The notes: a model not told the origin generated them from the letters alone. Positions 98-56,196 are shown, counted from the first letter of the stretch. The stretch: 64,000 nucleotides of DNA from Gammaproteobacteria bacterium (GCA_965205685.1 OZ242174.1:285231-349230); one strand, 5' to 3'. Program-made: numbers and translations.

Positions 98-934
98 TTA
101 CTCGGCAACCTTCCTGCCACCGTATGCGCCAACCAGGCCTTCGGGATGATCGAACACGCCGCCCACTTCCTCATGGCCAGGGCCGAAAAAGGCCCCTGAC
201 AGGCGGTTGTCGTCGGCATGATAACGGCTGAACTCCCCGTCCGTCACGGACATGCCCTCAAAGACCATGTCGGTATATGCCTGCCCGGTTGCGGTATTGG
301 CCAGGCCCGTCAAGCGAACGTCCGCCAGCACCTCGTCGTCGATACGCACGGCTATGCTGGCATCACCGACCACCACGGATTCCAGGTCCTCAGCGATGTT
401 GTGGTCCCTGGCCGTCGCAAAGCCGGTCCAGGTGGCTTCGGTGACGGGATTGGTCATGGTCGCATTGCCGGCGATGGTGCCATACGTCTGGGTCACGCCT
501 TGGTCGGGGTCGATCTCGTGCTTGAAAAGCACGACCGTGGAGGCAAAGAAGCTGTACTCCATCCACCCTGCATAGCTGTGCAGGTCATTGAAAGGGCTGA
601 TGGTCTGCTCGATTCCCGTGTTGATTCCGTTAGTGTCTGCAAGGATCGTGATCTCTTCGGGCACCAGGCTGTACACCTTGTTTGCGCGGATGAACGCCGA
701 GTAGCCCACCGAGCAGTACAGGCCCTTGCATTCCACGGAAACCCGTTCCGGCTCGATTCGTCCTGGGACCCAATTGATCCGGTCCGTGGAAAGCAGGAGG
801 TTGGCGCTCCCGGCAATCCGCTCGTAGTCCTGGATCGCATGGTATTCCGGGGTGTCCGGTGGCTTGTGCCGGGGACTGCCGCCACAGCCTGCGATCAGCA
901 GGCCCAGTACAGCGATGGCCAGTGTAATTCTCAT
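98..934 (-). CDS. surface lipoprotein with TbpB-like C-terminal beta-barrel domain
   Basis: ORF 98..1096 was trimmed to the internal Met that gives the MRITLAIAVLGLLIAGCGG lipobox signal peptide. The C-terminus GAFFGPGHEEVGGVFDHPEGLVGAYGG resembles the transferrin-binding-protein-B-like (Slam-dependent) lipoprotein handle domain. Confidence 0.5.
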   Translation of the reverse strand: MRITLAIAVLGLLIAGCGGSPRHKPPDTPEYHAIQDYERIAGSANLLLSTDRINWVPGRIEPERVSVECKGLYCSVGYSAFIRANKVYSLVPEEITILADTNGINTGIEQTISPFNDLHSYAGWMEYSFFASTVVLFKHEIDPDQGVTQTYGTIAGNATMTNPVTEATWTGFATARDHNIAEDLESVVVGDASIAVRIDDEVLADVRLTGLANTATGQAYTDMVFEGMSVTDGEFSRYHADDNRLSGAFFGPGHEEVGGVFDHPEGLVGAYGGRKVAE

Positions 935-1234
935 TATGCCTGCTGCCTCTTCCTTGATTTCATCCATCTCATTTGAGGTGGAGAATGTATCGGATTCACA
1001 GTCAAAATGCACCTGTCTCAATTCATGCAGCGCGTCCCCCACATCCCCATCTGGAAAGAGCCTTGGGCAGTCATCCTTGTAAATTTGAAGTAACACTTCA
1101 ATTTTGCAAGGTTACAGGCGCTGTGCATGCATGGGCCCCACAGGGACTGCAATGCGATACCCCAGCTGGTTTCGCTGCCGCATGGACAGGGACTGGCTCC
1201 CCAGTCACGGGTTTGGAAGGGCTTTCGATGGGGG

Positions 1235-2509
1235 CTAGCAGCCCAGTCCCCGGGCCATCTGGTCGTAGCTGGTAAGCGGCACCGCGCACATGCGCGCCCA
1301 GTCTGCCTCACTGAGGTCCGGGCGCTTCAGGATCTCGAGCATCTCGTTGAACTGGGCCAGCGCCTTGCAGTCCACCGCCTCGGGAGCCGCGGCTGTGCTG
1401 TGCGACGGCCAGACGTGATCTTTGGCGTGCTGCCAGAAGGGGCTGTCAAACTTCGAGCCGCAGGAATAGTGCCAGCCGACGAACAGCCCGTAACAGAGCA
1501 TGTTGTTGACCAGAAACCGGTTGACCGCATCGGCATCGCCGTCGGCATATTCGCCCGGGCGATTGAGGCGCATGTGCAGGATCATGCCGATCTGGATCTG
1601 CGCGGAGACGATGGCGGTGGCCTCGAGCGGCTCCATGAAGGCCGCCGCATTGCCGATGCGCGCGATCGCGCCATCGTAGATCCTGCGATTCACGAAGTTG
1701 GGAAAAGGGATGACCGAGCGCGGCTCGAACTCGCCCACACCGTCACTCTCGAGGAAGGCATCGAAATCCGCCTGCACTTCGTCGAGCTCGCTGAGGTCGC
1801 GGTTGAAGATGTAGCCGTAGGAGGTGTGCACCGTGAGCGGGATCACGAAAATCCAGCCGTGCGGACGTGCCACGGCCCGGGTGTAGGTGTGTTGCAGCAC
1901 CGGACCGTCGCCCTTGGCATCGAAAAGTGTCGGGCAGCGGCGGATGCAGGCGGTGTTGGTCGGGATGAACGAGATGTTGATGTGGTGTTCGGGATTCAGT
2001 TCCCTAGGGAAGCCGCGGGCATCGAAGACCAGATCGTAACGCTCAGGCTCACGGCCCTCGAAGGTGACCTCGGCCCCGCCGTCTATGCGCGTGATGTCCA
2101 GGACCTTCGCATCGATGTGCTGCGCGCGTGTGCGCTCGTACAGGAGTTCGGCAAGATAATCGGCCGACAGGTGGTAGGCGTAGGCAACATCCTTCGGCGA
2201 GAAGAAATGCGTGAAGTCCTGGTCGCATCGGCCCCATCCCTCGAAGGCCACGCCGTACTTGCGCGTGCCCCGCAAGTGCTGCTGGACGTCGTCGTTCGGA
2301 AGGTCCGTGAGTTGCTGCAGGTGTTCGACCAACGCCGGCCAGCTGCCCTCGCCCACGCCGATCACCGGGATGCGCGAGTCATAGATGTGGTGCAGTTCAT
2401 AGTCGTCCCCTGGGTGCAGGCGGGTGATGCTTGCAGCCGCCAGAGAACCCGCAGTGCCTCGCCCGACCACCGCGACCTTGCGCAAGGATTGGCTACCTGG
2501 CTGGATCAT
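1235..2509 (-). CDS. flavin-dependent (tryptophan-type) halogenase
   Basis: N-terminal FAD fold VAVVGRGTAGSLAA. It has the GWIFVIPL motif, the analogue of the GWxWxIP motif of flavin-dependent halogenases. Length 424 aa. Confidence 0.7.
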   Translation of the reverse strand: MIQPGSQSLRKVAVVGRGTAGSLAAASITRLHPGDDYELHHIYDSRIPVIGVGEGSWPALVEHLQQLTDLPNDDVQQHLRGTRKYGVAFEGWGRCDQDFTHFFSPKDVAYAYHLSADYLAELLYERTRAQHIDAKVLDITRIDGGAEVTFEGREPERYDLVFDARGFPRELNPEHHINISFIPTNTACIRRCPTLFDAKGDGPVLQHTYTRAVARPHGWIFVIPLTVHTSYGYIFNRDLSELDEVQADFDAFLESDGVGEFEPRSVIPFPNFVNRRIYDGAIARIGNAAAFMEPLEATAIVSAQIQIGMILHMRLNRPGEYADGDADAVNRFLVNNMLCYGLFVGWHYSCGSKFDSPFWQHAKDHVWPSHSTAAAPEAVDCKALAQFNEMLEILKRPDLSEADWARMCAVPLTSYDQMARGLGC

Positions 2510-2615
2510 CCTTCATGACCTCCACTGAGGTTGAAGCAGTCGACATCGACAAGGGTTCGCATTCCTGACTGCCAAAAAAAGCAAGGGCCTCCGAAGAGAC
2601 CCTGCGCCCTGCAGT

Positions 2616-2828: not shown

Positions 2829-4058
2829 TTAGAAGCTGAAGATGAGTTCCGCACCCGCGAAACTGTCGCGCCTGCCATCGTAGGTCAGGTCCTTGCGGTC
2901 TGAGCCCAAGTTGGCGAAGGTCTCAAGTCGCATCGACCAGCTGCCCGCGAGGCGGCGTTTGAATTCCAGGTTCAGGGTACGCGTGTTGTAGCGAAGATCG
3001 GCAAGCAGGCCAGCGATAAGCTCCGTGCCCTGCACGTCGTTGAAGGCGAGAAAGCCGGTGAGGTACATATCGTTTTGCCAGGCGCTGGTGGCCCGGCTGC
3101 CGCGTTCATCGTAGAGCCACTCGCCCAGCAGGGTCAGGTCGTACGGGGAATCAAAGAGCGCATAGAGCGTGCGCTCCACGCCAACGATGAAGGCACCGTA
3201 ATCTTCCCCCTCACCGAGCAGGTTTTGCGCGCCGTGCCGGCGGATGGCTTCCAGCTTGTACAGCACAGGCTCGGTGGTGAGCTGCGCTTCGAGCCCGAAC
3301 TGGCGGATCTGCTCGTAGAACGGCAGTAAGGGAGCACCCATGCCCGGTATGCTCCCGGCATCCGGATCCACCACGAACCGGGGTTCGCGGTTGGTGCCGG
3401 AAAACGCGCTCAGCGCGATGTCGAGCACGCCCACGGCGTGGCTGTAGCGAAACGCGACATCGACGTGGCGCTCCTCGGCGCCGCTCTCGTAGGCGGCATC
3501 GTCCTCGATCAGGCGGCCTGCACGCAGCCGCCCGGAACGCCCCGGAAAGGTCTGCCTGCGGTGGTAGGGCAGTACGAAGGTCTCGGCCAGGCCCCAGTCC
3601 CCGGAGACCGCCAGGTGAAGCATCGGCTGCCCCAGCTTGGGCCGGTCGCGCGGGTGCTCGACGAGGTCGATCTGGTTGACGATGTCGACCAGGTTGTGCA
3701 CCTCTGCCACGCCCCAGAAAACGCGGTCCACGCCCGCTCGCAGCTGCCAGGAATGCCCGCCCCACTCGCCGTACCTCAGCAGGTAGGCCTCGCGCACATC
3801 CGCGTGCGTGCGCCTGGAATCGGCGGTATCAAAGCGGTACAGCGGGGTGAAGGTGAAGCTGGTGGTGGGAGTGAGTTCACCGTGCAGCGTCGGCTCGAGC
3901 ACCCAGCCCACGGTGGACGAGCGCTGCCCCGCATGCGCGGGCGACTCCGGGTAGCCGCGGGTCTGCAGGCTGAGATCACCCGAGAGATCCAGCGCCCGAG
4001 CCTCGATGCCCGCACCGGCCAGGAACACGAGGGACGCTATGGCGCCAGAGAATCGCAT
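2829..4058 (-). CDS. outer-membrane beta-barrel protein (DUF1302-like partner of RND exporters)
   Basis: Signal peptide MRFSGAIASLVFLAGAGIEARA. The C-terminus ends with an aromatic residue (…ELIFSF), typical of OM barrels. The start overlaps the stop of the upstream LolA-like gene. Confidence 0.55.
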   Translation of the reverse strand: MRFSGAIASLVFLAGAGIEARALDLSGDLSLQTRGYPESPAHAGQRSSTVGWVLEPTLHGELTPTTSFTFTPLYRFDTADSRRTHADVREAYLLRYGEWGGHSWQLRAGVDRVFWGVAEVHNLVDIVNQIDLVEHPRDRPKLGQPMLHLAVSGDWGLAETFVLPYHRRQTFPGRSGRLRAGRLIEDDAAYESGAEERHVDVAFRYSHAVGVLDIALSAFSGTNREPRFVVDPDAGSIPGMGAPLLPFYEQIRQFGLEAQLTTEPVLYKLEAIRRHGAQNLLGEGEDYGAFIVGVERTLYALFDSPYDLTLLGEWLYDERGSRATSAWQNDMYLTGFLAFNDVQGTELIAGLLADLRYNTRTLNLEFKRRLAGSWSMRLETFANLGSDRKDLTYDGRRDSFAGAELIFSF

Positions 4059-4924
4059 CAGCGCACGCGTCGCAGTGCCAGTTTGTTGAATTCGCTGTCG
4101 TCGAGGTTGGTGCGAAACCTGAAGTCGGTCCAGTGCAGCACCGTGCTGGCCTTGGTCAGGTGGTTCACCATGGTCTGTTCCCCGGCCCGCCAGAACTGGT
4201 CCAGGTATTGCCGGTAGTTCGCAAACGTGAGTGTCTTCAGGTGCGAGTCCTTGCGGTCGTACAGTTCCATCTTCCAGACCCGAAGCTCACCGGTGTCCTG
4301 CCAGACGATCTTGCGGCTGTATCCGGAATTCTTGTCCAGCGGCACCTGCTCGGTCACCGTACAGCTGAGCACGCCACAGGACTCGTCGCGAAGGTACTTG
4401 TAGGTGTATTCCTCCACTTCCGGTGTGCTCATGTCCTCGTAGGAGAACTCGCTGCCCATGAAGGACCCGGAACGCTTCGAGGCGTTGATGCGCTTCACCC
4501 GCTTCAGGGCCGGCAGGTACAGCCACTGGTCGTCCTGGGTGTTGATGTGGGCATGGGTCAGCAAGGCGGTGCCCTGCACGTCGCGCGGCTGGTCGAACAC
4601 GAACAGGCTCTTGTCCCCGTCGCCTGCCACCTCCAGCACCTTGAAGCGCATCTGGCGGATGCTCTCGCGCCCGTACCGATCGCGCAGCACCATCGTCATG
4701 CCCGCAGTGAAATCCCCGAAGCCGTCGTTGCGGGCCTCGGCCTCCAGCGCGATCCTCAGCCCCTTCTCCTGCGCCGTCTCCGCCTGGACCGGTGCCTGCG
4801 CGAGGCCCAGGACCGCGAGGACCAGGGCCAGGGTCCCGAGCCATCCCTTGCGGGGGCGTAGGAAAGCCTTCGTCGGGTCTTTTGGACCCCATCGGTTTCG
4901 GGCGGTTTCGTGATCAGGAAACAT
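4058..4924 (-). CDS. LolA-like outer-membrane lipoprotein-sorting family protein
   Basis: The signal peptide WLGTLALVLAVLGLAQAPVQA is followed by motifs typical of the LolA-like family that accompanies COG1033 RND exporters. The start was chosen at an internal Met (ORF extends to 5038) and is uncertain. Confidence 0.55.
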   Translation of the reverse strand: MFPDHETARNRWGPKDPTKAFLRPRKGWLGTLALVLAVLGLAQAPVQAETAQEKGLRIALEAEARNDGFGDFTAGMTMVLRDRYGRESIRQMRFKVLEVAGDGDKSLFVFDQPRDVQGTALLTHAHINTQDDQWLYLPALKRVKRINASKRSGSFMGSEFSYEDMSTPEVEEYTYKYLRDESCGVLSCTVTEQVPLDKNSGYSRKIVWQDTGELRVWKMELYDRKDSHLKTLTFANYRQYLDQFWRAGEQTMVNHLTKASTVLHWTDFRFRTNLDDSEFNKLALRRVR

Positions 4925-5140
4925 CTGGACAGGCGTGTGATGGACGTGTGACATTGTACCTTGAGTGCCCGGAACAGGTGAAGTCACCGGCGTGCGAAGC
5001 CCCGGGCCGGGGCGGCACCATGGCGAGAATTTAGTCATTCCCGGTCGAGATTGCTTATAATCGCTAAAAGTTTCAACACCATCCTGAACGGGATGGCCCC
5101 GGGACTTTGCTTGGTCCAGGTGAGGAGGCTGCTCTAGGTC

Positions 5141-5692
5141 GTGTTCAACAATCCATTCGAGTCATTTCACAACATGGTCGCCGAGGCCAAGGAAGAACGT
5201 GAGCAGCTGGACCGGCTGCTGACCATTTCTACCCCCAATGAGCGTGCGCTGGTGGCTGCCATCGCCGGGGTGCTGGTGGTGCTTTTGGTCTGGCTGGTGT
5301 TTGGCAGCGTGGCCCGCAGCCTGACGTTCGACGGGGTCCTGGCCGGTCCCGGTGAGAGCACGCTGACAGGCGAGCACAACCTGCAGGCGATGGTGTGGAT
5401 CAAGCGTGATGCCGCGGCACAGATCGAGGCCGGTCAGCCTGCGAGGATCGAGTTCAGTGGAGCCGACGGGCACCTCCACACCCTGGCAGGGGAAGTGACA
5501 GGCATTTCCGCACTGCCCCTGACCGAGTTCCTGGCGATGTTCGAGGGCCGTGCACCGCTGTCGGTGCACCGCCTGCACATCCGACTCGATGAACGCCCCG
5601 AGGGCGCTGTGCCTGCACGCAAGGAATGTGAAGTCACCATCGAAGTGGGCAGACAGTCGCCGATCGCACGCCTTCGGATGAGGCCCTCCTGA
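5141..5692 (+). CDS. truncated HlyD-like membrane-fusion protein of an NHLP-type bacteriocin export system
   Basis: A single TM segment (LVAAIAGVLVVLLVWLVF) is followed by a beta-barrel/lipoyl-like segment. It is only 183 aa and lacks the alpha-helical hairpin. Its stop lies 1 nt before the C39 ABC exporter start. Confidence 0.5.
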   Translation: MFNNPFESFHNMVAEAKEEREQLDRLLTISTPNERALVAAIAGVLVVLLVWLVFGSVARSLTFDGVLAGPGESTLTGEHNLQAMVWIKRDAAAQIEAGQPARIEFSGADGHLHTLAGEVTGISALPLTEFLAMFEGRAPLSVHRLHIRLDERPEGAVPARKECEVTIEVGRQSPIARLRMRPS

Positions 5693-5693: not shown

Positions 5694-7904
5694 ATGGCAC
5701 CGAGTGCCTCCAAGGGCACCGGGGATCAGGCCACCTCGGATTCCGTCAAGCACCGGATCGCCACACCCGTGATGCTGCAGATGCACGCCTCCGAATGCGG
5801 GGCGGCGAGCCTCGGCAGCGTACTGGGCTTTTTCGGGCGCTGGGTGCCGCTGACCGAGTTGCGCGAGAAGTGCGAGGTCAGCCGCGACGGCAGCAGCGCG
5901 GCGAGCCTGCTGCGGGCCTCCCGCCACTACGGGCTGGAATGCAGTGGCCTGAGCGTACGTTCCGAGTCGCTGAAAAAACTGGAGTTGCCGCTGATCCTGT
6001 TCTGGCAGTTCAGTCATTTCCTGGTCCTCGAAGGCTTCGACGAGCGGTACTTCTACCTCAACGACCCGTCCACCGGGCGGCGCAAGGTCAGCGCCGAGGA
6101 GTTCGAAAAGAGCTACAGCGGGATCGCCTTGCGCTTCAAGCGCGGCAAGGATTTCAAGGCCGGCGGCGAGGCTCCCGGCCTGTTCACACAACTTGGCACC
6201 CTGCTGGCCGGCTCCTGGACGGTGCTTGCCGGAGTGGCGGCCACCGCCCTCATGGTGACGTTGCTGGCCCTGGTCGTGCCCGCGGTGCTCAGCATCTTCG
6301 TTGACGACGTGCTGGAAAACCACGGCGCCTGGGGCGGGCTGGTGGGCGCGCTGCTGGGTGCCGGGGTGCTGGTCTACCTGCTTTCCCTGCTCAAGCACCG
6401 GTTTTTGAAGCGACTGGCGGTGCGGATTTCGGTGATTGGATACAACCGCAACCTGACGCGCCTGCTGCGCCTGCCAGTGGAATTTTTCGAGCACCGCCTG
6501 ACCGGTGACCTGACCGACCGGGTGTCCTCCATCGACCGCATCGCGAAAAATCTCACTGACCAGTTCCTGGTGCTGCTCGTCGACATGGTCATGAGCGCGG
6601 TGCTGCTGATCGTGATGCTGGTGTACGAACCCCTGCTGAGCCTGATCGTGGTGTTACTCGCCGTCCTTCACGGCATGGTCGTGCACTTTTTGAATTCGCT
6701 TCGCACGGTGCGCATCCAGTCGATGCGCCGCGAACAGGGATTGCTGATCGGCGTGGGCATGCAGATGCTGAGCCATGCGGACACCCTTCGCATGACCGGT
6801 GCGGACGACCGGTTCTTCTCGCGCTGGAGCGGCCAGCAGGCGCGCGAACTGGAGGCGCGCCAGCACTACTTTGAACTCAGCGCATTCAACACCGCGCTGC
6901 CGGGGCTGGTGGCCATTCTCCGGGCCGCCGTGATCCTCGGCATCGGCGGAAGCCTGGTGCTGGCCGGGGAAATGAGCCTGGGTGCCTTGGTCGGGTTCTA
7001 CATCCTGGCGGAGATGTTCCTGTCGCCCATCGGGCAGTTCCTGGAGTTCGCCGACAGGCGCCAGGCCCTGGAGACCGACCTGCAGCGACTCGAGGACATC
7101 TCGCGGGCCGCTGAAGATCCCGTGATCCGCCGCCGAAGCCCGGAATCGGAGTCCATCCCGACGTTCAACGGGCGCCTGCAGCTGACCGGGCAACTCGAAC
7201 TGCGCGACGTCACCTTCGGATTCAACAGGAGCCGCCCGCCCCTGCTCAAGGAGTTCAACCTGACGATCCAGTCCGGGCAGCGCGTTGCCGTGGTGGGCCC
7301 GAGCGGTTCCGGCAAGTCGACCCTGGCGCGCCTGGTGTCCGGGGTGTACCAGCCCTGGTCCGGCGAAATCCTGTTCGACGGGCACCTGCGCGATGAGATC
7401 CCGGAGGAAGTCCTGCGCCAGTCCATCTCCATGGTGGACCAGGAGGTCGTGCTGTTTTCCGCGTCGCTGCGCGACAATATCACCTTGTGGAATTCGGCCA
7501 TCCCGGATGAGGCCATCTTCGCCGCCACGCGCGATGCCTGGATCCACGACGAGATCCTGCTTCGCCCGCAAGGCTATGCGACCGAGGTCGAGGAAGGTGG
7601 GGTAAACTTCAGCGGCGGCCAGCGCCAGCGCCTGGAAATCGCCCGCGCGCTGGTCGGCAACCCGACCGTACTCATCCTGGACGAGGCCACCAGCGCGCTC
7701 GATGCGGCGACCGAGGAGCATGTCGATGATGCCTTGCGCCGTCGCGGCGTGACCTGCCTGATCGTGGCACACCGCCTGAGCACGGTGCGCGACTGCGACG
7801 AAATCATCGTGCTCGATCAGGGGACCGTGGTGCAGCGCGGCACGCACGATGACCTGATTGCAGATCGCGATGGCACCTATTACAAGCTGGTCAAGTCGGG
7901 ATAA
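5694..7904 (+). CDS. NHLP/bacteriocin-family ABC exporter with N-terminal C39 peptidase domain
   Basis: C39 active-site context QMHASECGAASLGSV. Six TM helices. Walker [10 protein letters not shown], signature FSGGQRQRLEIAR, Walker B LILDEATSALD. Confidence 0.9.
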   Translation: MAPSASKGTGDQATSDSVKHRIATPVMLQMHASECGAASLGSVLGFFGRWVPLTELREKCEVSRDGSSAASLLRASRHYGLECSGLSVRSESLKKLELPLILFWQFSHFLVLEGFDERYFYLNDPSTGRRKVSAEEFEKSYSGIALRFKRGKDFKAGGEAPGLFTQLGTLLAGSWTVLAGVAATALMVTLLALVVPAVLSIFVDDVLENHGAWGGLVGALLGAGVLVYLLSLLKHRFLKRLAVRISVIGYNRNLTRLLRLPVEFFEHRLTGDLTDRVSSIDRIAKNLTDQFLVLLVDMVMSAVLLIVMLVYEPLLSLIVVLLAVLHGMVVHFLNSLRTVRIQSMRREQGLLIGVGMQMLSHADTLRMTGADDRFFSRWSGQQARELEARQHYFELSAFNTALPGLVAILRAAVILGIGGSLVLAGEMSLGALVGFYILAEMFLSPIGQFLEFADRRQALETDLQRLEDISRAAEDPVIRRRSPESESIPTFNGRLQLTGQLELRDVTFGFNRSRPPLLKEFNLTIQSGQRVAVVGPSGSGKSTLARLVSGVYQPWSGEILFDGHLRDEIPEEVLRQSISMVDQEVVLFSASLRDNITLWNSAIPDEAIFAATRDAWIHDEILLRPQGYATEVEEGGVNFSGGQRQRLEIARALVGNPTVLILDEATSALDAATEEHVDDALRRRGVTCLIVAHRLSTVRDCDEIIVLDQGTVVQRGTHDDLIADRDGTYYKLVKSG

Positions 7905-10846
7905 TGCAGGACACCCAGCCCGCCTACTCCTCGATCGCCGAACTCGCGGCCCGCCTGGGGACTGACGTGCCCTGTGCCGGTAACCTGCCGGTGAAGCTCG
8001 ACGATGCGGACAGCATCTGGCTCATTGACCGGGGCACCGTCAACCTGTTTTTAGTCGAGCTCAAGGACGGTGTGGAGCAGTCGTCTCCACAGCATCTGCT
8101 GCGCCGCGAGGCGGGCTGGTTCCTGCCAGGGGTTCCTGCGCGCGAACCTGATGCGCAGGATGGAACCACGCTGAGCCTGGTAGCCAAGGGTCTGCCCTGC
8201 ACCTTGCTGAAACGCTTGCCGGTCTCCCTGCTGTCCAAGGTGCACCCGGGCGAGCTTGCCGAGCAGACCGATGCCTGGCTGAGCGAGATGACCGACACGC
8301 TGTCGCGCTTCGCCACGCCCGCACCGCGCCCGACGGCCCTGGCCGAGGCCGGTGCGATACAGGTCCCGGCGCATAGCACGCTGTCGGTGCAGCGCAAGGT
8401 GGTGTGGGCGTCCCCGCACCCGGGCAGTGCGCTGCTGTTCATGGACATCGTCGATCCGATGGAGTTGGCCGAGGCCAGCGGCGCAGGGGATGCGGTTCTG
8501 CCGCTGACCCGCACCAGCTGGCTGACCACGCTGGAGGAGACCACGCTGGAGTGCGTGAGCACGCAAACCCTGGCCGAGCAGGGCCGCCTGCAGGGCGCAC
8601 TGTCGTATTTTCATGAGGTCGCCTTCACCCTGGAGCGCCTGAACCGCCGCCTAGCCGTGGTCGACGATGTGAACCTCGAACGTGCCCGCACAACGAGCCG
8701 GCGCACGGCCGAGAAGGCGGCCCGCGCGCGCCTGTTCAACCTCTACGACCAGCCGGTGGGCCGCTATGCCGGCCTTGAGGACACCACCTTGGTCGATGCC
8801 CTGCAGGTCATTGGCCGCCACGAGGGTATCGATTTTAAGATTCCCGTACGTTCCGGGCCTTCGCAGGCTTCGCTCGGCTTGGTCGACGTGCTGGATGCCT
8901 CCGGAGTGCGCGCAAGGCGCGTGCGGCTCAAGGACGAGGACCGGTGGTGGCGCACCGACAGCCACGCGATGCTGGGATTTCGTGCCAAGGACGGCCAGCC
9001 CGTGGCCCTGCTGCCGGGTGTGTTCGGCGGCTACCGCGAAATCGACCCGGTCAGCAAGCGCACGGTTCGCGTCAGCCAGGAACGCGCAGATGCACTGCGT
9101 GAGGACGCGTGGATGTTCTACCGCCCCTTGCCTGCAGACGAGGTGAAACCGGCGGACCTGCTGGGCCTGGCTCTGCAGGGATCGGGACCGGACATTGCCC
9201 GGCTGGTGCTCGCAGGACTTCCCTACGGGCTGATCCAGTTGTTGCCGGCCATCGCGCTTGGCTTTGTCGCCCATGAAATCGCCGCAGGCGGCACTGCCGG
9301 TGCGATCTACGCCGTGGCCTGGGTGTTGGCCGGGTTCGGCCTTCTCGGGGCACTGCTGCACCTCGCGCAAAGTACGGCGATGATGCGTCTTGAGGGGCGC
9401 TCGGCCTCGCGCGCAGAAGCGGCCTTCTGGGACCGCCTCATGCGATTGCCGCCGGCCATCCTGCACCGCCATCCGTCAGGCGACCTGGCGATGTCGGGCA
9501 TGACCTTCCAGAACCTTCGAGACGGCCTGCAGGGAGTGGTCGCCGACAGCTTCCTGTCAGTCATCTTCCTGGCCCCGGTGTTTGCCGTCATCTTCTTCTA
9601 CGATGCCGCCCTCGGCAGTCTCGCCCTGGCCTTCAGCCTGGGGTCGCTGCTCATTACAGGGATGCTCGGTGTCCTGCAGATTGCCCCGTACGGGCGCATG
9701 ATTCGTGCGTCACGGCGTGTCGCCGGGCGCCTGTTCCAGATCGTTGGCGGCTTTGCCAAGCTGCGCGTGGAAAATGCCGAAGGCTCCGCGTTTGCCATGT
9801 GGGCCGAGGACTACCGCGAGCAAAAACGCGCGGAACTCGATTTGAGCGTGCTGGAGGGGCATTCGCGGGCGTTTTCCGCAGCATTGCCGTTTCTCGCGGG
9901 AGCCTTCTTGCTGCTGGCCGCAGTGACCGTCGGCGAGCGCATCATGCCGGTCGGTGATTTTCTGGTCGTCTACCTGGTCTTCATCGCCTTCCAGAGCGCG
10001 ATCGCACGCCTTGGCGAGTCTCTGGGGACCGTTGCGGCCCTGTTGCCGGCGTTCAAGCAGATGCGCCCGCTGCTGGCTGCAGATCCAGAAACCGAGACCG
10101 AAGGCGAGCCGGTGGAATACCTGGGCGGGGACCTCCTGTTCGACCGCATCTCGTTTCGCTACGACCCGGACGGCCCGCTGATTCTCGACGATGTCACGAT
10201 CCACGCACGCGCAGGCGAGTTCATCGCCATCGCCGGCGAGTCCGGCACCGGCAAGAGCACCCTGTTTCGCCTCGCACTCGGCATCGACCGGCCCACGGCG
10301 GGCGCGGTGTACTACGACGGGCGCGATGTGCGCCACCTGAACCTGCGCCAGCTGCGCCGCAAGGTTGGTGCGGTGCCGCAAGCCGTGGGACTTCACCCCC
10401 TGGATATCTGGGACAACCTGGTCAGCCATCATGACGGGATCACCACCGAAGAGGTCTGGGAGGCGGTGCGAACCGCCGAAGTCGAGAAAGAGATCAAGGC
10501 CATGCCCATGGGCATGATGACCATGGTCGGCGCTAGCGGCTCGGTGCTGTCTGGTGGCGAGAGCCAGCGCGTCACCATCGCCCGCTCGGTGATCGGCAAG
10601 CCGCGGATCATGTTGTTCGACGAGGCGACCAACTGGCTGGATAACGAAAACCAGGCCCGGGTCATGGACAACCTGACCGACCTGACCTCTACCCGGCTGG
10701 TCATCGCCCACCGCCTGTCCACGCTCGAGCAGGCGGATCGCATCTACGTGCTGTCCGGCGGCAAGGTGGTGCAGCACGGCAGCTTCGAGGAACTCATGGA
10801 AGAGGACGGGGTGTTCAAGGAACTGGTCAAAAGGCAGATCGCCTGA
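7904..10846 (+). CDS. second ABC exporter of the NHLP bacteriocin system (long N-terminal extension, permease and ATPase)
   Basis: A ~430-aa N-terminal domain precedes the TM domain. Walker A GESGTGKST, signature LSGGESQRVTIAR, Walker B MLFDEATNWLD. ATG overlaps the preceding stop (TAATG). Confidence 0.85.
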   Translation: MQDTQPAYSSIAELAARLGTDVPCAGNLPVKLDDADSIWLIDRGTVNLFLVELKDGVEQSSPQHLLRREAGWFLPGVPAREPDAQDGTTLSLVAKGLPCTLLKRLPVSLLSKVHPGELAEQTDAWLSEMTDTLSRFATPAPRPTALAEAGAIQVPAHSTLSVQRKVVWASPHPGSALLFMDIVDPMELAEASGAGDAVLPLTRTSWLTTLEETTLECVSTQTLAEQGRLQGALSYFHEVAFTLERLNRRLAVVDDVNLERARTTSRRTAEKAARARLFNLYDQPVGRYAGLEDTTLVDALQVIGRHEGIDFKIPVRSGPSQASLGLVDVLDASGVRARRVRLKDEDRWWRTDSHAMLGFRAKDGQPVALLPGVFGGYREIDPVSKRTVRVSQERADALREDAWMFYRPLPADEVKPADLLGLALQGSGPDIARLVLAGLPYGLIQLLPAIALGFVAHEIAAGGTAGAIYAVAWVLAGFGLLGALLHLAQSTAMMRLEGRSASRAEAAFWDRLMRLPPAILHRHPSGDLAMSGMTFQNLRDGLQGVVADSFLSVIFLAPVFAVIFFYDAALGSLALAFSLGSLLITGMLGVLQIAPYGRMIRASRRVAGRLFQIVGGFAKLRVENAEGSAFAMWAEDYREQKRAELDLSVLEGHSRAFSAALPFLAGAFLLLAAVTVGERIMPVGDFLVVYLVFIAFQSAIARLGESLGTVAALLPAFKQMRPLLAADPETETEGEPVEYLGGDLLFDRISFRYDPDGPLILDDVTIHARAGEFIAIAGESGTGKSTLFRLALGIDRPTAGAVYYDGRDVRHLNLRQLRRKVGAVPQAVGLHPLDIWDNLVSHHDGITTEEVWEAVRTAEVEKEIKAMPMGMMTMVGASGSVLSGGESQRVTIARSVIGKPRIMLFDEATNWLDNENQARVMDNLTDLTSTRLVIAHRLSTLEQADRIYVLSGGKVVQHGSFEELMEEDGVFKELVKRQIA

Positions 10847-10900: not shown

Positions 10901-12196
10901 ATGAACCCTCCCATCGATGGTGCAGGCCAGCTCATTTTGCGTGCGGGCCGGGACGAAGGCTTTCGACAACGCCTCATCGATAATCCCAGGCAGGCCATCG
11001 AGGAGGCCCTCGGCGTGAAGATCTCCGCAGACCAGCAGGTGTTCGTGCACGAGTCGAATGAAACCGAAGCCCACCTTGTGCTGCCGCCGGTGAGCACGCG
11101 CACGCCAGCCGAACGCGAGGCCGCGAGAACCGGCGTGGCCTCCCTGGAGTTTCTTCGCAAGACGCTGCACGACCCGGCCCCGCCGATGCGCACTCCCGCA
11201 CCGGCCCGGGCAGTGGACCCCGGGGCGGGCGCCGAGGACCTGGCGTCGGCCGCGCGCAACAGTATCGGTCGTGGCCTCGAATTCCTGCAATCCAGCATCA
11301 CCGATGACGGTGCCTGGCACTGCATTCGCTTCAACATTGCCGATCCCGAGGTGCCCCGGCATTTCGAGCGGCCTGCATTCGTGACGGCATTTTGCGTACT
11401 GGCCCTGCAAGGCTGCGGAGATGTGCGCGCGAAGGCCCTGTACGAGACGAGCCGGGCGTACCTGATGGACACCATGGAATATCCCGGCATGTGGCGCTAC
11501 TACCGCCACCTGCCCCAGGATCTGGACAGCACGACCCTGTGCTCGCTGATCCTTGGTTCGCATCCGTGGATCGCGCTCGGGCGAAACGTGGCAAAGATCC
11601 TGTCGAACCGCGATGCACAGGGCCGTTTCCTGACTTGGGTGCTGGGCGAGGACGAGCCCGATGTCGTGTCAAAATTTCGCATCGAGGCCGACCCGGTGGT
11701 GAATGCGAACGTCATCGCCTACCTCGGCGATCACCCGCAGACCCGTCCCGCGCAGCGCTGGCTCGAAGAGCTGGTACGCGAGGACCGCGTACAGGGCACC
11801 TCGAAATGGTATCCCGATACGATAGCGATCTACTACGCCATCACGCGCACAATGGTGCGCGCTCGCCCCGCGCTCGAGTCGCTTCGCCCGATCCTGGCAG
11901 ACCGTATCCTCGGTCTTCGCGACCCCGAGGGCGGGTTTGGCAACCTACTGCAAAGCGCCCAGGCAGTCTCGGCGCTCGACAACGTGCAGTGCCTGGGCCG
12001 TATCGACATGAAAGTCGAGCTGGCCCGCCTGCTGGGTGCACAGCACGAGGACGGAAGCTGGCCGGAGCTGCTCGCTTTCGGCGACCAGACGCTCAAGTGG
12101 GGGGTGGTCGGTCAGTTCGGACACGCCTCGGAGCCCGTGACCACGGCCTTCTGCATCGAGGCGCTGGGACGCCTCGCACAAGCGCTGAGCAGCTGA
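10901..12196 (+). CDS. NHLP leader-peptide domain fused to a prenyltransferase/squalene-cyclase-repeat (alpha/alpha-toroid) domain
   Basis: Residues ~18-63 (GFRQRLIDNPRQAIEEALGVKISADQQVFVHESNETEAHLVLPP) are paralogous to the leader of the precursor at 13475..13726. After a Pro/Ala-rich linker there are QW-type repeats (RGLEFLQSSITDDGAWH, DAQGRF, DPEGGFGN, HEDGSWP). Confidence 0.7.
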   Translation: MNPPIDGAGQLILRAGRDEGFRQRLIDNPRQAIEEALGVKISADQQVFVHESNETEAHLVLPPVSTRTPAEREAARTGVASLEFLRKTLHDPAPPMRTPAPARAVDPGAGAEDLASAARNSIGRGLEFLQSSITDDGAWHCIRFNIADPEVPRHFERPAFVTAFCVLALQGCGDVRAKALYETSRAYLMDTMEYPGMWRYYRHLPQDLDSTTLCSLILGSHPWIALGRNVAKILSNRDAQGRFLTWVLGEDEPDVVSKFRIEADPVVNANVIAYLGDHPQTRPAQRWLEELVREDRVQGTSKWYPDTIAIYYAITRTMVRARPALESLRPILADRILGLRDPEGGFGNLLQSAQAVSALDNVQCLGRIDMKVELARLLGAQHEDGSWPELLAFGDQTLKWGVVGQFGHASEPVTTAFCIEALGRLAQALSS

Positions 12197-12207
12197 GGAA
12201 GTAAGGT

Positions 12208-13347
12208 ATGGCATCTGCCCCAGAGGACATCAGCATCGACGAGGCCATCCTGCTGACCCAGGAGCGCCTAGACGATGAAGGCGACAGCATGGCCGACTTG
12301 CTCGAGCACTTTCGCGAGCGAATCTCGCCGGTGCTGATCGGCGACTCCCAATGGACCCGAGTACTCGATTGCGTCGCCAAGCTTCCGATCACCATGGCGG
12401 CCCTTCCCTTCGGTTTCGAACTGCCCCTGCATGAGACAGCACCGCTGGCGGATTTTGGCGCCTCGCTGGCTGCCGGCACGCGATCGGCCGAACCATTCCT
12501 TGCCCGTGCGAAGGCGGACCCCGGCGATGCACTGGCGTGCGCGATCGCCCGCCTGTTCCGCCAGATGGAGGCCGAGCCCTCGCCGCTTCGCGAGGTGGTC
12601 GGGCGAAAGCTCATGCTCGAATATGACATCGGTTCGGCCGGGCCGGGCAAGCCGCCCTTCCCTGGCATGTTTTTGCGCCCCGGCGAGCGCCCGATACTCG
12701 GGGCCTGCGAGCAGCACGACGAGGTTGCCCTGGTGGCGGATGCGCTGGTGTCCTGTCTTGGCTGGTCGATGGATGAGGCCCATCGCGGGCACATTGAACG
12801 CAGCTACCGGATGCAGCCCGAGGATACGCGCATGGACTCGTTCGGTGTGTTTCCCTCACGCTCGCAAGCCATACGCCTGGCGGTCATGGGCTTTCGCTCG
12901 AGCGCACAGCTTGGCGAGTATCTTGAGAACACCGGCTGGCCCGGGGACATTGCAGCCGTCGATGCGGTGCTCAAGCGATTCGCTGAGCGCGCGGACATCG
13001 TTCGCACCGGCATCAATATCGACGTCCAGGAGCAGGGCCTGGGTCCGACGCTGGGCCTGACGCTGATCGTCAAGCAGCGCTATACGAAAGATTCCCGCTA
13101 CTGGCTCGATGGCCTGACCGACTGGGAGCCGTTCCTTGAGGCGCTGGGCCAGGAGGCGCTGGTGGACCGGGACAAGCTGGCCGAGCTGGCCACGTGGGTG
13201 AGCAAGCCGACGACGCTGTTTGCGAAGTCCGGGCGCTTTGTGCTGCTGCGTGGCATCCACCACATCAAGCTGGTGATCTCCGAGAATGAACTGCGAAAAG
13301 CCAAGGCCTACGTGTTCATGGTGCTGTCCGGTGCGGTCAGTTTCTGA
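12208..13347 (+). CDS. hypothetical protein, co-transcribed with the leader-toroid fusion
   Basis: Clean 379-aa ORF, 11 nt after the upstream stop. No recognisable family. Confidence 0.45.
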   Translation: MASAPEDISIDEAILLTQERLDDEGDSMADLLEHFRERISPVLIGDSQWTRVLDCVAKLPITMAALPFGFELPLHETAPLADFGASLAAGTRSAEPFLARAKADPGDALACAIARLFRQMEAEPSPLREVVGRKLMLEYDIGSAGPGKPPFPGMFLRPGERPILGACEQHDEVALVADALVSCLGWSMDEAHRGHIERSYRMQPEDTRMDSFGVFPSRSQAIRLAVMGFRSSAQLGEYLENTGWPGDIAAVDAVLKRFAERADIVRTGINIDVQEQGLGPTLGLTLIVKQRYTKDSRYWLDGLTDWEPFLEALGQEALVDRDKLAELATWVSKPTTLFAKSGRFVLLRGIHHIKLVISENELRKAKAYVFMVLSGAVSF

Positions 13348-13474: not shown

Positions 13475-13726
13475 TTACCAGCAGCAGCAAAGCCCGGCGG
13501 AAATCGCTTCGAGCTGCTCTTCGCTGATGTTCGGGTCCGGTGGCAGGGCAAGATGCACCGTCTGCATGTCGCTCTCATGGACCACAACGTTCATCGACTC
13601 GGGCATGGTAATGCCCAACTCTGCGCTGATGGTAGATTTCGGGTCATCGAGAAGCTGTTGCCTGAATTCTGTGTCCAGGGCAGACTTCTCAACAATCTGC
13701 TTAAGCATGTCATCGCCGCTTCTCAT
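13475..13726 (-). CDS. NHLP-family RiPP precursor peptide, predicted core LCCCW
   Basis: Leader motif FRQQLLDDPKSTISAELGITMPESMNVVVHESDMQTVHLALPPDP. A double-glycine-type site QLEAISAG (L-7, I-4, AG-2/-1) is followed by the C-terminal LCCCW. AAGGAGG lies 6 nt before the ATG. Confidence 0.75.
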   Translation of the reverse strand: MRSGDDMLKQIVEKSALDTEFRQQLLDDPKSTISAELGITMPESMNVVVHESDMQTVHLALPPDPNISEEQLEAISAGLCCCW

Positions 13727-13891: not shown

Positions 13892-14329
13892 CTACTTGAA
13901 CGTCTCGTCCCCCTCGAAGATGCCCTGCAGGCGGATCTTGCTCTTCTTGTTGGCCATTTCAGTGCGGATCCGCTGCTCCATGAACCATGCCGTTTTCTGG
14001 TTCAGGATCAGACTGCGGGCCAGCCGGTAGCTGGACAGGTTTTTCCCGGCATGGACGATCAGGCCGACCGCCAGAAACCATTTTTGCAGCGGGATGCGGG
14101 TCTTCTCGAACAGCGTGCCCGAAAGGACGTTGAAGCTGGACCTGCATCCATGGCAGTTCCAGCGCCCGACGCGACCCGAGTCTATCTTTCTGGCCACGCG
14201 GACACTTCCACAATGCGGGCAACGGGGCTGATCCCCCCAGCGGAGCCCTTCAAGGTGCCCAATGCAGGCCGCCTGGTCCGGGAAGCGGTGGAAGATCCGC
14301 AGGATGTCGATGGCTCGAGCTTTGGCCAT
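13892..14329 (-). mobile_element. IS1595-family transposase N-terminal fragment (remnant)
   Basis: Zinc-ribbon CPHCGS…CHGC and IS1595-type N-terminus. It is only 145 aa, the DDE domain is absent, and no inverted repeats were identified. Confidence 0.55.
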
Positions 14330-19184: not shown

Positions 19185-19294
19185 AGGCGCTGACCAGCGT
19201 GAAATGCGCCAGTCCGGCGCCTTGACATGCCAATCCCGATGCGGACAATGAATTTCAATGATGAATACATTCCAGCGCTTGGCTGGAGGTTGTT

Positions 19295-21763: not shown

Positions 21764-21877
21764 CACGCCTCATACGAGTTGAATAGCAAGCGCGAGCGCG
21801 CCTGATTTACAATTCCCCTCCACGGTGACCGCAGCCTTGCGGGGGATTACCGAGAGAACCCCCGGACCGGAACCCGT

Positions 21878-29684: not shown

Positions 29685-30078
29685 GGTGGAACAGTCGCAA
29701 TGTCCTTGTGCAAGTGCCTGGGCCTCCGTGGCGCGGGTCCTGTGTTAGTGCGGCTACATGGTTTCATCATGTAACTGGATGATGAAATCATGAAAATCGC
29801 AGGAATTATATACAATTCCACTACATATAGTATATAGGTAGAAATAGAATAACAATATGTGCGTATCTTCGGTATTTACCTGATTCCGCATAGGAATCCT
29901 GGGGATGAATTCGACGAAACGGGAATGGTTTTGACTGCAGGAAATGCGAGTCGGCACGTGCGAATTTGACATGCACGGATGCGGGTTTCATAGTGCAAGA
30001 AACACTGCCCAGGCCCGGTGGTACGTGGGACACCGGCCATCGAGGCACGTGCGTGAGATCGAATTGCGAGGAGGAAGC

Positions 30079-45848: not shown

Positions 45849-46087
45849 ATATGCCTCCTCAAATAGGATGCTCCAGTTCCTGGTCAGGAAGTCCATGTCT
45901 GGCCCAGGGGTTGTCTGAATTGAAACACCTGCGGACCCTCCGGTTTGAATTATTTTAGGATGATCTATAATAATATATTTATCTATAATTATGATGAGTG
46001 TATATGTATTGTATACAGATCAAGAATTCTGATTTAATCTGTATTAATATATATAATTAATCTTATGATTTATAATAACCTATCGAT

Positions 46088-46684
46088 ATGACCTACACCA
46101 CTGAACATATTACCCAGACACTCAAGCGCGCCCGAGAGGCTCAAGCGCTCAGCCAGCGCACACTCGGCACCCAAGCCGGTGTGCCCCAGGGACATATCTC
46201 GAAAATCGAAAACGGGGCCGTGGACCTGCGTATATCGAGTCTGGTCGAGCTTGCACGCGTGCTGGGTTTGGAGGTCATGCTCGTGCCCCGCAAAAGCGTT
46301 TCAGCCGTGCAGGCCTTGGTGCGAAACACAGGGGGACTTGGCGAGGGACCTGCGCCCAAGGCACCTAGGGAATTAGGTCGATTGCAAGGCAGGATCGCCA
46401 ACCTTGTGCAAAAGCACCCCACTGTGCATGAGGTGGCGCAGCTGCACCGCCAGGCAAACGAATTGGCACATGTTCGTATCCCGCAGGACCACCTTGCAGT
46501 GATCAGGGCGGTGGAGGATCTGGTAGAGGAGTATTCCAGTGACAGCATGCGCACGGTTTCCCTGGTTGAGGCGTTTGAACGGATTCGCCGCCTGCGCAAT
46601 AAACTGGCCCATGGAGTTGAAGCTCAGCAGGATGATCCGCAAGTGCGCCCGGCCTATCGTTTGGACGAGGATGAGGATGGCTGA
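46088..46684 (+). CDS. hipB: HipB-like XRE-family HTH antitoxin with long C-terminal extension
   Basis: HTH LSQRTLGTQAGVPQGHISKIENG. Its stop overlaps the hipA start by 8 nt. Confidence 0.7.
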   Translation: MTYTTEHITQTLKRAREAQALSQRTLGTQAGVPQGHISKIENGAVDLRISSLVELARVLGLEVMLVPRKSVSAVQALVRNTGGLGEGPAPKAPRELGRLQGRIANLVQKHPTVHEVAQLHRQANELAHVRIPQDHLAVIRAVEDLVEEYSSDSMRTVSLVEAFERIRRLRNKLAHGVEAQQDDPQVRPAYRLDEDEDG

Positions 46685-56185: not shown

Positions 56186-56196
56186 CCGTGATCCCT

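What the first reader, a model, noticed from the sequence alone, without database searches (positions are those of the whole stretch)
1235..2509. Flavin-dependent tryptophan-type halogenase upstream of the locus
GWIFVIPL and the FAD fold indicate a halogenase. The only Trp-containing small peptide encoded nearby is the LCCCW core. Alternatively it may be an orphan.
Basis: inference. Interest (0 to 1): 0.5.

Follow-up and report, generated by a model that had tools for sequence, protein, structure and literature searches.

The report
SrpI peptide tryptophan brominase ortholog

Summary
Window 1235..2509 (minus strand) is an intact 424-aa ORF with a GGAGG ribosome-binding site.

The protein is 73% identical over its full length to the published, biochemically characterised brominase SrpI. 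The peptide at 13475..13726 (minus) is 82% identical to SrpI's published substrate SrpE and has the identical LCCCW core.

A YcaO cyclodehydratase (the SrpC equivalent) and the two NHLP-type export ABC transporters lie between and beside these genes. The halogenase sits with the same gene set in nine related metagenome-assembled genome (MAG) loci, although gene order is shuffled. It is therefore a cluster member, not an orphan.

By homology, it most likely uses FADH2, O2 and bromide to brominate indole C6 of the C-terminal Trp of leader-attached SrpE. The leader is recognised through its I/L(X)4L motif. No flavin reductase is encoded in the window.

This is the published srp ("sponge-derived RiPP proteusin") cluster, so novelty is low. 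What remains open is the cryptic final product and several conserved accessory genes of unknown role.

The parts
1235..2509 (-). srpI ortholog: 424-aa flavin-dependent peptidyl-tryptophan halogenase (brominase by homology)
   Evidence: Pfam Trp_halogenase 148.9 bits. 73% identity and 86% positives over full length to published SrpI. AF2 model pLDDT 93.2; Foldseek TM 0.77-0.81 to PyrH, MibH and PrnA.
2519..2523 (-). GGAGG ribosome-binding site, 9 nt before the ATG
   Evidence: Read directly from the sequence.
2584..2603 (-). Terminator-like GC hairpin followed by a T run, between the upstream outer-membrane-protein gene and srpI
   Evidence: Consensus scan only (5 sites found versus 2.8 expected in the region). 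Weak evidence; it suggests srpI may have its own transcription start here.
2447..2464 (-). GRGTAG, the GxGxxG FAD-binding motif (residues 16-21)
   Evidence: G16, G18 and G21 are invariant in 121 family members.
2258..2260 (-). Lys84, the catalytic lysine
   Evidence: Aligns to the MibH lysine in TWKLGIRFE. The published numbering is SrpI K84 = MibH K102 (PMC10858898 suppl. Fig. 32). Invariant in 121 close and 105 diverse homologues.
2180..2200 (-). Loop 104-110, SPKDVAY. This is the region modelled as the leader-contact loop in SrpI, where it reads TPQQVSY
   Evidence: The window variant is shared by only 4 of 121 family sequences.
1835..1858 (-). GWIFVIPL, a variant (WxFxIP) of the halogenase WxWxIP motif
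   Evidence: W219, F221 and P224 are conserved across the short-halogenase clade. The identical string is present in published SrpI.
1622..1633 (-). E293-PLE, within FMEPLEAT. The conserved glutamate motif of flavin-dependent halogenases
   Evidence: Aligns to the MibH FVEPLESS motif. Invariant in the family.
13475..13726 (-). srpE ortholog: 83-aa NHLP (proteusin) precursor, the inferred substrate
   Evidence: TIGR03793 leader_NHLP 68.1 bits. 82% identical to published SrpE. The exact sequence is found on at least 5 other contigs.
13478..13492 (-). Core peptide LCCCW. The C-terminal Trp (13478..13480) is the predicted bromination site
   Evidence: The core is identical to published SrpE.
13511..13528 (-). 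ISEEQL, the I(X)4L version of the L(X)4L leader motif required for SrpI activity
   Evidence: The motif's role is described in PMC10858898 and PMC11791876. ITEEQL is the common natural variant (loci).
16785..19184 (-). srpC-like YcaO cyclodehydratase with an N-terminal leader-binding domain. Predicted to convert the three Cys to thiazolines
   Evidence: Pfam YcaO 315 bits. TIGR03604 SagD-type 252 bits and TIGR03882 leader-binding 141.7 bits. 60-64% identical orthologs in L004, L008 and L009.
5694..7904 (+). NHLP-family export ABC transporter with a C39 peptidase domain. Predicted to cleave the leader after AG and export the product
   Evidence: TIGR03796 857.7 bits, above the cut-off of 853.3. 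Peptidase_C39 111.6 bits.
7904..10846 (+). Second NHLP export ABC transporter subunit
   Evidence: TIGR03797 656.7 bits. Conserved in all related loci.
5141..5692 (+). 183-aa short HlyD-like secretion protein
   Evidence: Only the N-terminal ~50 aa match TIGR03794. The 183-aa length is conserved in related loci.
2829..5038 (-). LolA-like/TP_0789 protein (4058..5038) and a 409-aa protein that I presume is outer-membrane (2829..4058). Both are conserved srp-cluster neighbours
   Evidence: Pfam LolA_like 197 bits. Co-located with the halogenase in L001, L002, L004, L006, L009 and L010.
14440..16773 (-). MMPL/HAE3-type RND transporter, a conserved srp-cluster gene
   Evidence: Pfam MMPL 118.6 bits. 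TIGR00921. 76-77% identical in L004-L007.
19295..21763 (+). Fatty-acid-desaturase-like domain fused to a GlnE-like nucleotidyltransferase, a conserved srp-cluster gene of unknown role
   Evidence: Adjacent to the YcaO gene in L004, L008, L009 and L011-L013.
10901..13347 (+). Two conserved cluster genes of unknown role: an NHLP-leader-fused alpha/alpha-toroid protein (10901..12196) and a 379-aa protein with no family hit (12208..13347)
   Evidence: Conserved in related loci.

Best explanation
The ORF is the SrpI ortholog of an srp (sponge-derived RiPP proteusin) biosynthetic gene cluster. SrpI is a two-component flavin-dependent halogenase. The steps below are inferred by homology to the characterised enzyme and were not shown here. 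A flavin reductase encoded elsewhere in the genome supplies FADH2. FADH2 and O2 form a flavin hydroperoxide, which oxidises bromide to hypobromous acid. Lys84, with the E293-PLE glutamate, directs this species onto indole C6 of the C-terminal Trp of the precursor SrpE. The enzyme works only while the NHLP leader is attached, and it recognises the leader through the I/L(X)4L motif (ISEEQL here). The YcaO enzyme (SrpC equivalent) converts the three Cys of LCCCW to thiazolines; that modified peptide is the likely physiological substrate, although SrpI also accepts unmodified cores. The C39-peptidase ABC exporter then cleaves after the AG motif and exports a brominated tris-thiazoline pentapeptide.
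For: Enzyme class:
- Pfam Trp_halogenase 148.9 bits.
- A high-confidence AF2 model (pLDDT 93.2) matches PyrH, MibH, PrnA and other halogenases at TM 0.77-0.81.
- GxGxxG, K84, WxFxIP and EPLE are present and invariant in 121 family members.

Identity with characterised proteins:
- 73% identity and 86% positives, end to end, to the SrpI sequence printed in the supplement of PMC10286304. Numbering matches for K84, P105 and V108.
- The precursor is 82% identical to SrpE, with an identical LCCCW core and AG boundary.

Genomic linkage:
- tblastn of the window's genes against L001-L010 places the halogenase with SrpE (LCCCW; LSCCW in L009), the YcaO, both NHLP ABC subunits and the accessory genes, despite shuffled order and orientation.
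- L004 has all 12 genes co-linear on one strand.
- The same arrangement as the window recurs in L011-L013.

Biochemistry, from the literature:
- SrpI brominates indole-6 of the C-terminal Trp of the thiazoline-modified LCCCW core.
- It requires the leader in cis and does not act on free Trp.
- It was reconstituted with the heterologous reductase RebF (PMC10286304).
- It shows no chlorination (PMC12615548).
- Mutating L(X)4L to A(X)4A abolishes activity (PMC11791876).
Against: - No activity was measured for this ortholog. At 73% identity, halide preference and regiochemistry are inferred, not shown.
- The loop modelled as the leader contact differs: SPKDVAY here versus TPQQVSY in SrpI and in 109-117 of 121 relatives.
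- The leader motif is ISEEQL rather than the published NLTEEQL.
- The second Trp of the canonical WxWxIP motif is Phe. The active SrpI has the same substitution.
- No flavin reductase was found among the ORFs of 150 aa or more that I picked as the likely genes, so the electron donor is unidentified.
- A terminator-like hairpin lies just upstream of the gene, so co-transcription with neighbouring cluster genes is not evident.
- The SrpI reference sequence came from a machine-read PDF and appears to contain a few inserted letters (426 versus 424 aa), so 73% is approximate.
Confidence: 0.9

Rival explanations
1. It is an orphan or free-substrate halogenase acting on free tryptophan, indole or another small aromatic, and lies next to the RiPP cluster by chance.
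For: By fold it is as close to free-Trp halogenases (PyrH, SttH, PrnA) as to the peptide halogenase MibH. SrpI can brominate free indole at C3 in vitro (PMC10286304). A terminator-like hairpin separates the gene from its upstream neighbours.
Against: Linkage to SrpE, the YcaO and the exporters survives extensive gene-order shuffling across Gamma- and Alphaproteobacterial MAGs. SrpI does not brominate free Trp. Relative to MibH, the protein lacks about 45 residues after residue 100 and about 60 residues at the C-terminus (query 100/105 aligns to MibH 117/167; query 363-424 to MibH 420-541). No small-molecule pathway genes flank it.
Confidence: 0.03
2. It is an SrpI-family peptide halogenase whose chemistry has diverged in this lineage, for example chlorination, a different indole position, or altered leader recognition.
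For: It is only 73% identical to SrpI. The putative leader-contact loop is SPKDVAY in 4 of 121 sequences versus TPQQVSY in the rest. The leader carries I67/S68 instead of L67/T68. The related MppI brominates C5 rather than C6 (PMC11791876), which shows that regiochemistry varies among peptide brominases.
Against: The core LCCCW and the last 17 leader residues are nearly identical to SrpE. The catalytic motifs are invariant. SrpI tolerates unrelated proteusin leaders (MprE, OspA, DprE2) as long as the motif is kept. I(X)4L is the common natural form.
Confidence: 0.06
3. It is a flavin monooxygenase or an inactive relic, not a halogenase, because the WxWxIP signature is degenerate.
For: The second Trp of WxWxIP is Phe. 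NCBIfam gives only very weak hits to named halogenase and monooxygenase equivalogs.
Against: Published SrpI carries the identical GWIFVIPL string and is an active brominase. K84 and E293 are invariant. The ORF is intact, has an RBS, and is conserved at about 75% identity in more than 100 sequences.
Confidence: 0.01

Closest known systems
SrpI, the peptidyl tryptophan-6-brominase of the srp BGC (Nguyen et al., JACS 2021; PMC10286304; PMC10858898)
   Same: Same length class (424 aa). 73% identical end to end, with the same K84, GWIFVIPL and FMEPLEAT motifs. Same substrate type, SrpE with an LCCCW core. Same cluster partners: the YcaO SrpC and the NHLP exporters.
   Different: About a quarter of residues differ, including loop 104-110 (SPKDVAY versus TPQQVSY) and the cognate leader motif (ISEEQL versus LTEEQL). 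Gene order in this lineage is rearranged. Activity has not been tested.
MppI, a leader-dependent Trp-5 brominase of a Moorena producens lanthipeptide cluster (PMC11791876)
   Same: A short, SrpI-like flavin-dependent halogenase that needs the leader, brominates without chlorinating, and has a catalytic Lys.
   Different: It acts on an internal Trp of a macrocyclised Nif11-type peptide at C5 and contacts the whole leader.
MibH, the lanthipeptide Trp-5 chlorinase of NAI-107 (PDB 5UAO)
   Same: It is the best solved-structure match by sequence (E 5.6e-27). The fold is the same (TM 0.77), the catalytic Lys is superimposable, and the substrate is a peptide.
   Different: MibH is 541 aa, with extra elements where SrpI binds the leader. 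It is a chlorinase and acts only after leader removal. Identity in the structural alignment is about 21%.
Free-tryptophan halogenases PrnA, RebH, PyrH, SttH and Thal
   Same: Same two-component FAD fold and Lys/Glu catalytic apparatus.
   Different: They are about 500-550 aa with a full substrate-binding module, a canonical WxWxIP motif and free L-Trp as substrate. They sit in small-molecule pathways. Identity is about 20-22%.

Membership tests
Flavin-dependent halogenase (Pfam PF04820 Trp_halogenase) | Profile score above the curated cut-off | tested here: met
   148.9 bits versus a cut-off of 21, E 2.7e-43.
Flavin-dependent halogenase (Pfam PF04820 Trp_halogenase) | N-terminal GxGxxG FAD-binding motif | tested here: met
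   G16-R-G18-T-A-G21 at window 2447..2464. Invariant in 121 homologues.
Flavin-dependent halogenase (Pfam PF04820 Trp_halogenase) | Catalytic lysine (PrnA K79 / MibH K102 equivalent) | tested here: met
   K84 aligns with the MibH lysine. Invariant in both alignments. It matches the published SrpI K84.
Flavin-dependent halogenase (Pfam PF04820 Trp_halogenase) | WxWxIP motif | tested here: inconclusive
   Present as W219-I-F221-V-I-P224, with the second Trp replaced by Phe. The same variant occurs in the experimentally active SrpI and across the short-halogenase clade, so the strict motif is not obligatory for activity.
Flavin-dependent halogenase (Pfam PF04820 Trp_halogenase) | Conserved glutamate in the FxEPLES-type motif | tested here: met
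   FMEPLEAT, with E293 and E296 invariant. It aligns to MibH FVEPLESS.
Flavin-dependent halogenase (Pfam PF04820 Trp_halogenase) | Halogenase three-dimensional fold | tested here: met
   AF2 pLDDT 93.2, pTM 0.92. The top 50 Foldseek PDB hits are all flavin-dependent halogenases, most of them Trp halogenases, with TMq 0.73-0.81.
SrpI orthologs / srp BGC | High full-length identity to characterised SrpI | tested here: met
   73% identity, 86% positives, 424 of 424 residues aligned.
SrpI orthologs / srp BGC | NHLP (proteusin) precursor SrpE with an LCCCW core ending in Trp | tested here: met
   13475..13726 (minus): 82% identical to SrpE with an identical core. TIGR03793 68.1 bits.
SrpI orthologs / srp BGC | YcaO cyclodehydratase (SrpC) in the cluster | tested here: met
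   16785..19184 (minus): YcaO 315 bits and a SagD-type domain plus a leader-binding domain. No published SrpC sequence was available for direct comparison.
SrpI orthologs / srp BGC | Conserved co-localisation of halogenase, precursor and YcaO in relatives | tested here: met
   SrpE was found in L004-L009 and the YcaO in L004, L008 and L009. L011-L013 reproduce the window's order.
SrpI orthologs / srp BGC | L(X)4L leader motif needed for SrpI binding | tested here: inconclusive
   Present as I(X)4L (ISEEQL, 13511..13528). This is a conservative variant that is common in nature, but only L-to-A mutants have been assayed.
SrpI orthologs / srp BGC | Bromide-only activity, indole-C6 regiochemistry and leader dependence | not testable with these tools
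   Known for SrpI from PMC10286304 and PMC12615548. This ortholog needs an enzyme assay.
SrpI orthologs / srp BGC | Origin in a marine-sponge microbiome | tested here: inconclusive
   The window's provenance is not given. Its nearest relative (95.7% nt identity over 10 kb) is MAG SB0662_bin_53. In PMC7883664, bins of that series are listed among Entoporibacteria, a group that paper describes as symbiotic. This is suggestive only.
Free-tryptophan halogenases (PrnA/RebH/PyrH type) | Protein of about 500-550 aa with a complete substrate-binding module | tested here: not met
   The protein is 424 aa. The alignment to MibH skips MibH residues 117-167 and leaves about 60 fewer C-terminal residues. 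TM normalised to the target is only 0.60-0.70.
Free-tryptophan halogenases (PrnA/RebH/PyrH type) | Neighbourhood encoding a small-molecule (indole alkaloid, NRPS or similar) pathway | tested here: not met
   The neighbours are RiPP precursor, YcaO, NHLP exporter and RND/LolA-like genes.

The most novel reading that the evidence does not exclude
The enzyme itself is ordinary, but the srp product is still cryptic and may be more than a brominated tris-thiazoline pentapeptide. Seven further genes travel with srpI, srpE and the YcaO gene through every rearrangement seen. They are an RND/MMPL transporter, a LolA-like protein, a putative outer-membrane protein, a desaturase-GlnE fusion, an NHLP-leader-fused alpha/alpha-toroid protein, a 379-aa protein with no family match and a truncated HlyD. 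They could add an undescribed modification or a dedicated envelope-export route. In addition, this lineage's altered leader-contact loop (SPKDVAY) and ISEEQL leader could represent co-evolved recognition.
Probability: 0.15. Interest if true: 0.5.

Novelty: already known. Interest (0 to 1): 0.2.

Why it matters
This assigns a confident function to the gene and to the surrounding ~24 kb: it is an srp cluster copy in a small-genome proteobacterial lineage. The related MAG chromosome OZ244850.1, which carries the identical SrpE, is 1.97 Mb. SrpI is used as a biocatalyst for site-specific peptide and protein bromination followed by cross-coupling. Natural variants with a different leader-contact loop could therefore be useful for engineering. 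Biologically, nothing new is revealed about the halogenase. The open questions concern the natural product, its role in the sponge, and the conserved accessory genes.

Tried and rejected
- A first AlphaFold run used 36 close homologues and gave pLDDT 43. I discarded it. A second run with 105 diverse sequences gave pLDDT 93.
By sequence, MibH is only marginally the best hit.
- The primary srp paper (JACS 2021, PMC8780398) and the mpr paper (PMC9746716) are not held. I could therefore not check the published gene names and boundaries of the srp BGC, nor the SrpC sequence.
- An exact-sequence look-up of the halogenase found nothing. The exact SrpE was found on at least 5 contigs.
- I looked for a flavin reductase by scanning the ORFs of 150 aa or more that I picked as likely genes against Pfam. 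None was found. ORFs under 150 aa, and opposite-strand ORFs I judged spurious, were not scanned.
- The S8 peptidase (21878..24385) and the TbpB-like lipoprotein (98..1096) were considered as cluster members and rejected. The first has no counterpart in L001-L010. The second is found only in the closest lineage.
- The long minus-strand ORF 19181..21766, opposite the desaturase-GlnE gene, and the plus-strand ORF 1127..2518, opposite srpI, are most likely high-GC shadow ORFs. The first has no family hit. The second was not scanned.

Full report
**1. The observation**

Window 1235..2509 holds a 424-aa ORF on the minus strand, running from ATG at 2509 to the stop at 1235..1237. A GGAGG sits 9 nt upstream of the ATG. 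A GxGxxG dinucleotide-binding motif, GRGTAG, is residues 16-21.

Pfam assigns the protein to Trp_halogenase PF04820 with 148.9 bits against a cut-off of 21. Thirty-one solved halogenase structures match by sequence. The best is MibH (5uao, E 5.6e-27), followed by 9luq (deposited as 'Tryptophan halogenase') and then PrnA, PyrH, SttH and RebH.

**2. What it is**

The 5.8-billion-protein search returned more than 1,100 relatives. The best 120 are all about 424 aa and 73-94% identical. This is an unusually tight family, spread over contigs annotated as Gamma- and Alphaproteobacteria and Rhodospirillales.

The only Trp-terminated small peptide in the window is an 83-aa NHLP-leader precursor at 13475..13726 (minus). 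It ends ...PPDPNISEEQLEAISAG-LCCCW.

The literature identifies this combination exactly. SrpI is a flavin-dependent brominase found in marine-sponge microbiomes. It brominates the C-terminal Trp of the proteusin SrpE, whose core is LCCCW, after the YcaO enzyme SrpC has converted the three Cys to thiazolines (PMC10858898; PMC10286304).

I recovered the published SrpI and SrpE sequences from the supplement of PMC10286304 and compared them directly.
- The window protein is 73% identical (86% positives) to SrpI over its whole length.
- The window peptide is 82% identical to SrpE, with an identical core and AG boundary.
- The SrpI text was machine-read and seems to carry a few spurious letters, so 73% is approximate.
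- Residue numbering agrees with the published description (catalytic K84; P105 and V108 in the loop modelled as the leader contact).

**3. Surroundings and comparative context**

Between and beside the two genes lie the following.
- A fused leader-binding/YcaO cyclodehydratase at 16785..19184 (minus): YcaO 315 bits, TIGR03604 and TIGR03882.
- The two NHLP-bacteriocin export ABC subunits: 5694..7904, which carries a C39 peptidase domain (TIGR03796, 857.7 bits), and 7904..10846.
- A 183-aa HlyD-like protein, an MMPL/HAE3 RND transporter, a LolA-like protein and a 409-aa protein that I presume is outer-membrane.
- A desaturase-GlnE fusion, an NHLP-leader-fused alpha/alpha-toroid protein and a 379-aa protein with no family hit.

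I ran tblastn with all of these against the ten genome loci retrieved with the halogenase. The same set accompanies the halogenase wherever the flanks reach.
- SrpE was found in L004-L009. The core is LCCCW, except in L009, where it is LSCCW.
- In L004 all twelve genes are co-linear on one strand, with the halogenase in the middle.
- In L008 and L009 the order and orientation differ again.
- The window's own arrangement recurs in L011-L013, which carry the identical SrpE. One of them is a 1.97-Mb MAG chromosome.

Linkage that survives this much rearrangement argues that the halogenase is a functional cluster member and not an orphan.

The window is 95.7% identical at the nucleotide level over 10 kb to MAG SB0662_bin_53. 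In one paper, bins of that series are listed among Entoporibacteria, a group it describes as symbiotic. This suggests a sponge-microbiome origin for the window but does not prove it.

**4. Anatomy of the enzyme**

In 121 close family members, G16/G18/G21, K84, W219/F221/I223, E293-P-L-E296 and most of the surrounding residues are invariant.

In a 105-sequence alignment reaching down to about 25% identity, K84, W219 and P294 remain invariant. F221, P224 and E293 are at least 90% conserved. The WxFxIP form of the classical WxWxIP motif is therefore a trait of this whole clade of short halogenases (about 380-450 aa). It is shared with the active SrpI.

An AlphaFold model built on the diverse alignment is confident (pLDDT 93.2, pTM 0.92). 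It matches PyrH, MibH, SttH, PrnA, BrvH and others at TM 0.77-0.81 normalised to the query, but only 0.60-0.70 normalised to the targets.

The lower target-normalised score reflects missing segments. The sequence alignment to MibH skips MibH residues 117-167 and leaves about 60 fewer C-terminal residues. This agrees with the published remark that elements present in MibH are absent where SrpI binds the leader.

One local difference stands out. Loop 104-110 is SPKDVAY here and in only 3 other sequences, against TPQQVSY in SrpI and nearly all relatives.

**5. Mechanism**

What is shown here is membership of the enzyme class, orthology to SrpI, and the presence and linkage of substrate, cyclodehydratase and exporter.

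What is inferred from the characterised ortholog and from general flavin-dependent-halogenase chemistry is the following.
- FADH2 comes from a reductase encoded elsewhere. None was found among the ORFs of 150 aa or more that I picked as likely genes, and SrpI was reconstituted with the foreign reductase RebF.
- FADH2 reacts with O2, the flavin hydroperoxide oxidises bromide, and Lys84/Glu293 deliver the electrophile to indole C6 of the terminal Trp.
- The reaction occurs only on leader-attached peptide. It depends on the L(X)4L motif and does not occur on free Trp.
- No chlorination occurs.
- The leader here has I(X)4L (ISEEQL). ITEEQL is the common natural form, so recognition is probably retained.
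- Leader removal after the AG motif, and export, fall to the C39-ABC transporter.

A terminator-like hairpin lies 75 nt upstream of the start codon. It hints that srpI is transcribed on its own here, but this rests on a consensus match only.

**6. Comparison with known systems, and novelty**

The closest known system is SrpI and the srp BGC itself. MppI, MibH and the free-Trp halogenases are progressively more distant (see the table of closest known systems). Every defining feature that could be tested computationally is met, or met in a conservative variant form. Halide specificity, regiochemistry and leader dependence need experiments.

The system has been published and studied since 2021. 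Near-identical MAG sequences (93-98% protein identity) are already public. The finding is therefore already known.

**7. Verdict**

The orphan alternative is rejected.

Interest is low for the halogenase as such. Residual interest lies in the still-cryptic natural product, in the conserved accessory genes of unknown role, and in the lineage-specific variation of the loop and the leader.

Noticed in passing
window 10901..12196 (+): A 431-aa protein. Its first ~79 residues are an NHLP leader, 34% identical to the SrpE leader and ending ...AARTG where SrpE has ...AISAG. It lacks the L(X)4L motif. The leader is fused to a ~350-aa squalene-hopene-cyclase-like alpha/alpha-toroid domain (PDB 8paj, E 2.7e-6). 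The protein is conserved at 60-95% identity in srp loci. It may be a protein-sized cargo of the NHLP exporter, or a leader-mimicking accessory protein.
   Followed up: partly
window 19295..21763 (+): An 822-aa fusion of a fatty-acid-desaturase-like membrane domain with a GlnE-like nucleotidyltransferase. In L004, L008 and L009 it lies immediately upstream of the YcaO gene and runs in the same direction. Here and in L011-L013 it is divergent from the YcaO gene. Its role in the srp pathway is unknown.
   Followed up: partly
window 12208..13347 (+): A 379-aa protein with no Pfam or NCBIfam hit. It is conserved in srp loci (59-63% identity in L008 and L009; also present in L011-L013).
   Followed up: partly
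window 5141..5692 (+): A 183-aa protein that matches only the first ~50 residues of the 421-aa NHLP-system HlyD model. The short length is conserved in all related loci, so it is a genuine truncated adaptor rather than a fragment.
   Followed up: partly
window 13892..14329 (-): A 145-aa protein comprising only the zinc-ribbon/N-terminal part of an IS1595-family transposase. It sits at the same position, between the MMPL gene and srpE, at 141-145 aa in L011-L015. It may be a domesticated DNA-binding remnant rather than a recent insertion.
   Followed up: partly
window 2829..5038 (-) and 14440..16773 (-): A LolA-like/TP_0789 protein, a 409-aa protein with no family hit (presumed outer-membrane) and an MMPL/HAE3 RND transporter travel with the srp genes in most related loci. 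This suggests a dedicated envelope-export or lipid-handling module.
   Followed up: partly
window ~46000..58300: A low-GC island (46-54% GC versus ~63% elsewhere) packed with toxin-antitoxin and defence genes: HTH/HipA, HipA_2, AbiEi/AbiEii, Fic, HEPN-RES, RloB plus an AAA_21 ATPase, and an S24 peptidase repressor.
   Followed up: no
window 26226..29684 (-) and 29944..32598 (+): A 1,152-aa Calx-beta/autotransporter protein and a TonB-dependent receptor lie downstream of the cluster. I saw no link to the srp genes.
   Followed up: no
L009 4182..4517 (+): One related locus encodes an SrpE with core LSCCW instead of LCCCW. This is a natural core variant (Ser would give an oxazoline) next to a 64%-identical halogenase.
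   Followed up: no
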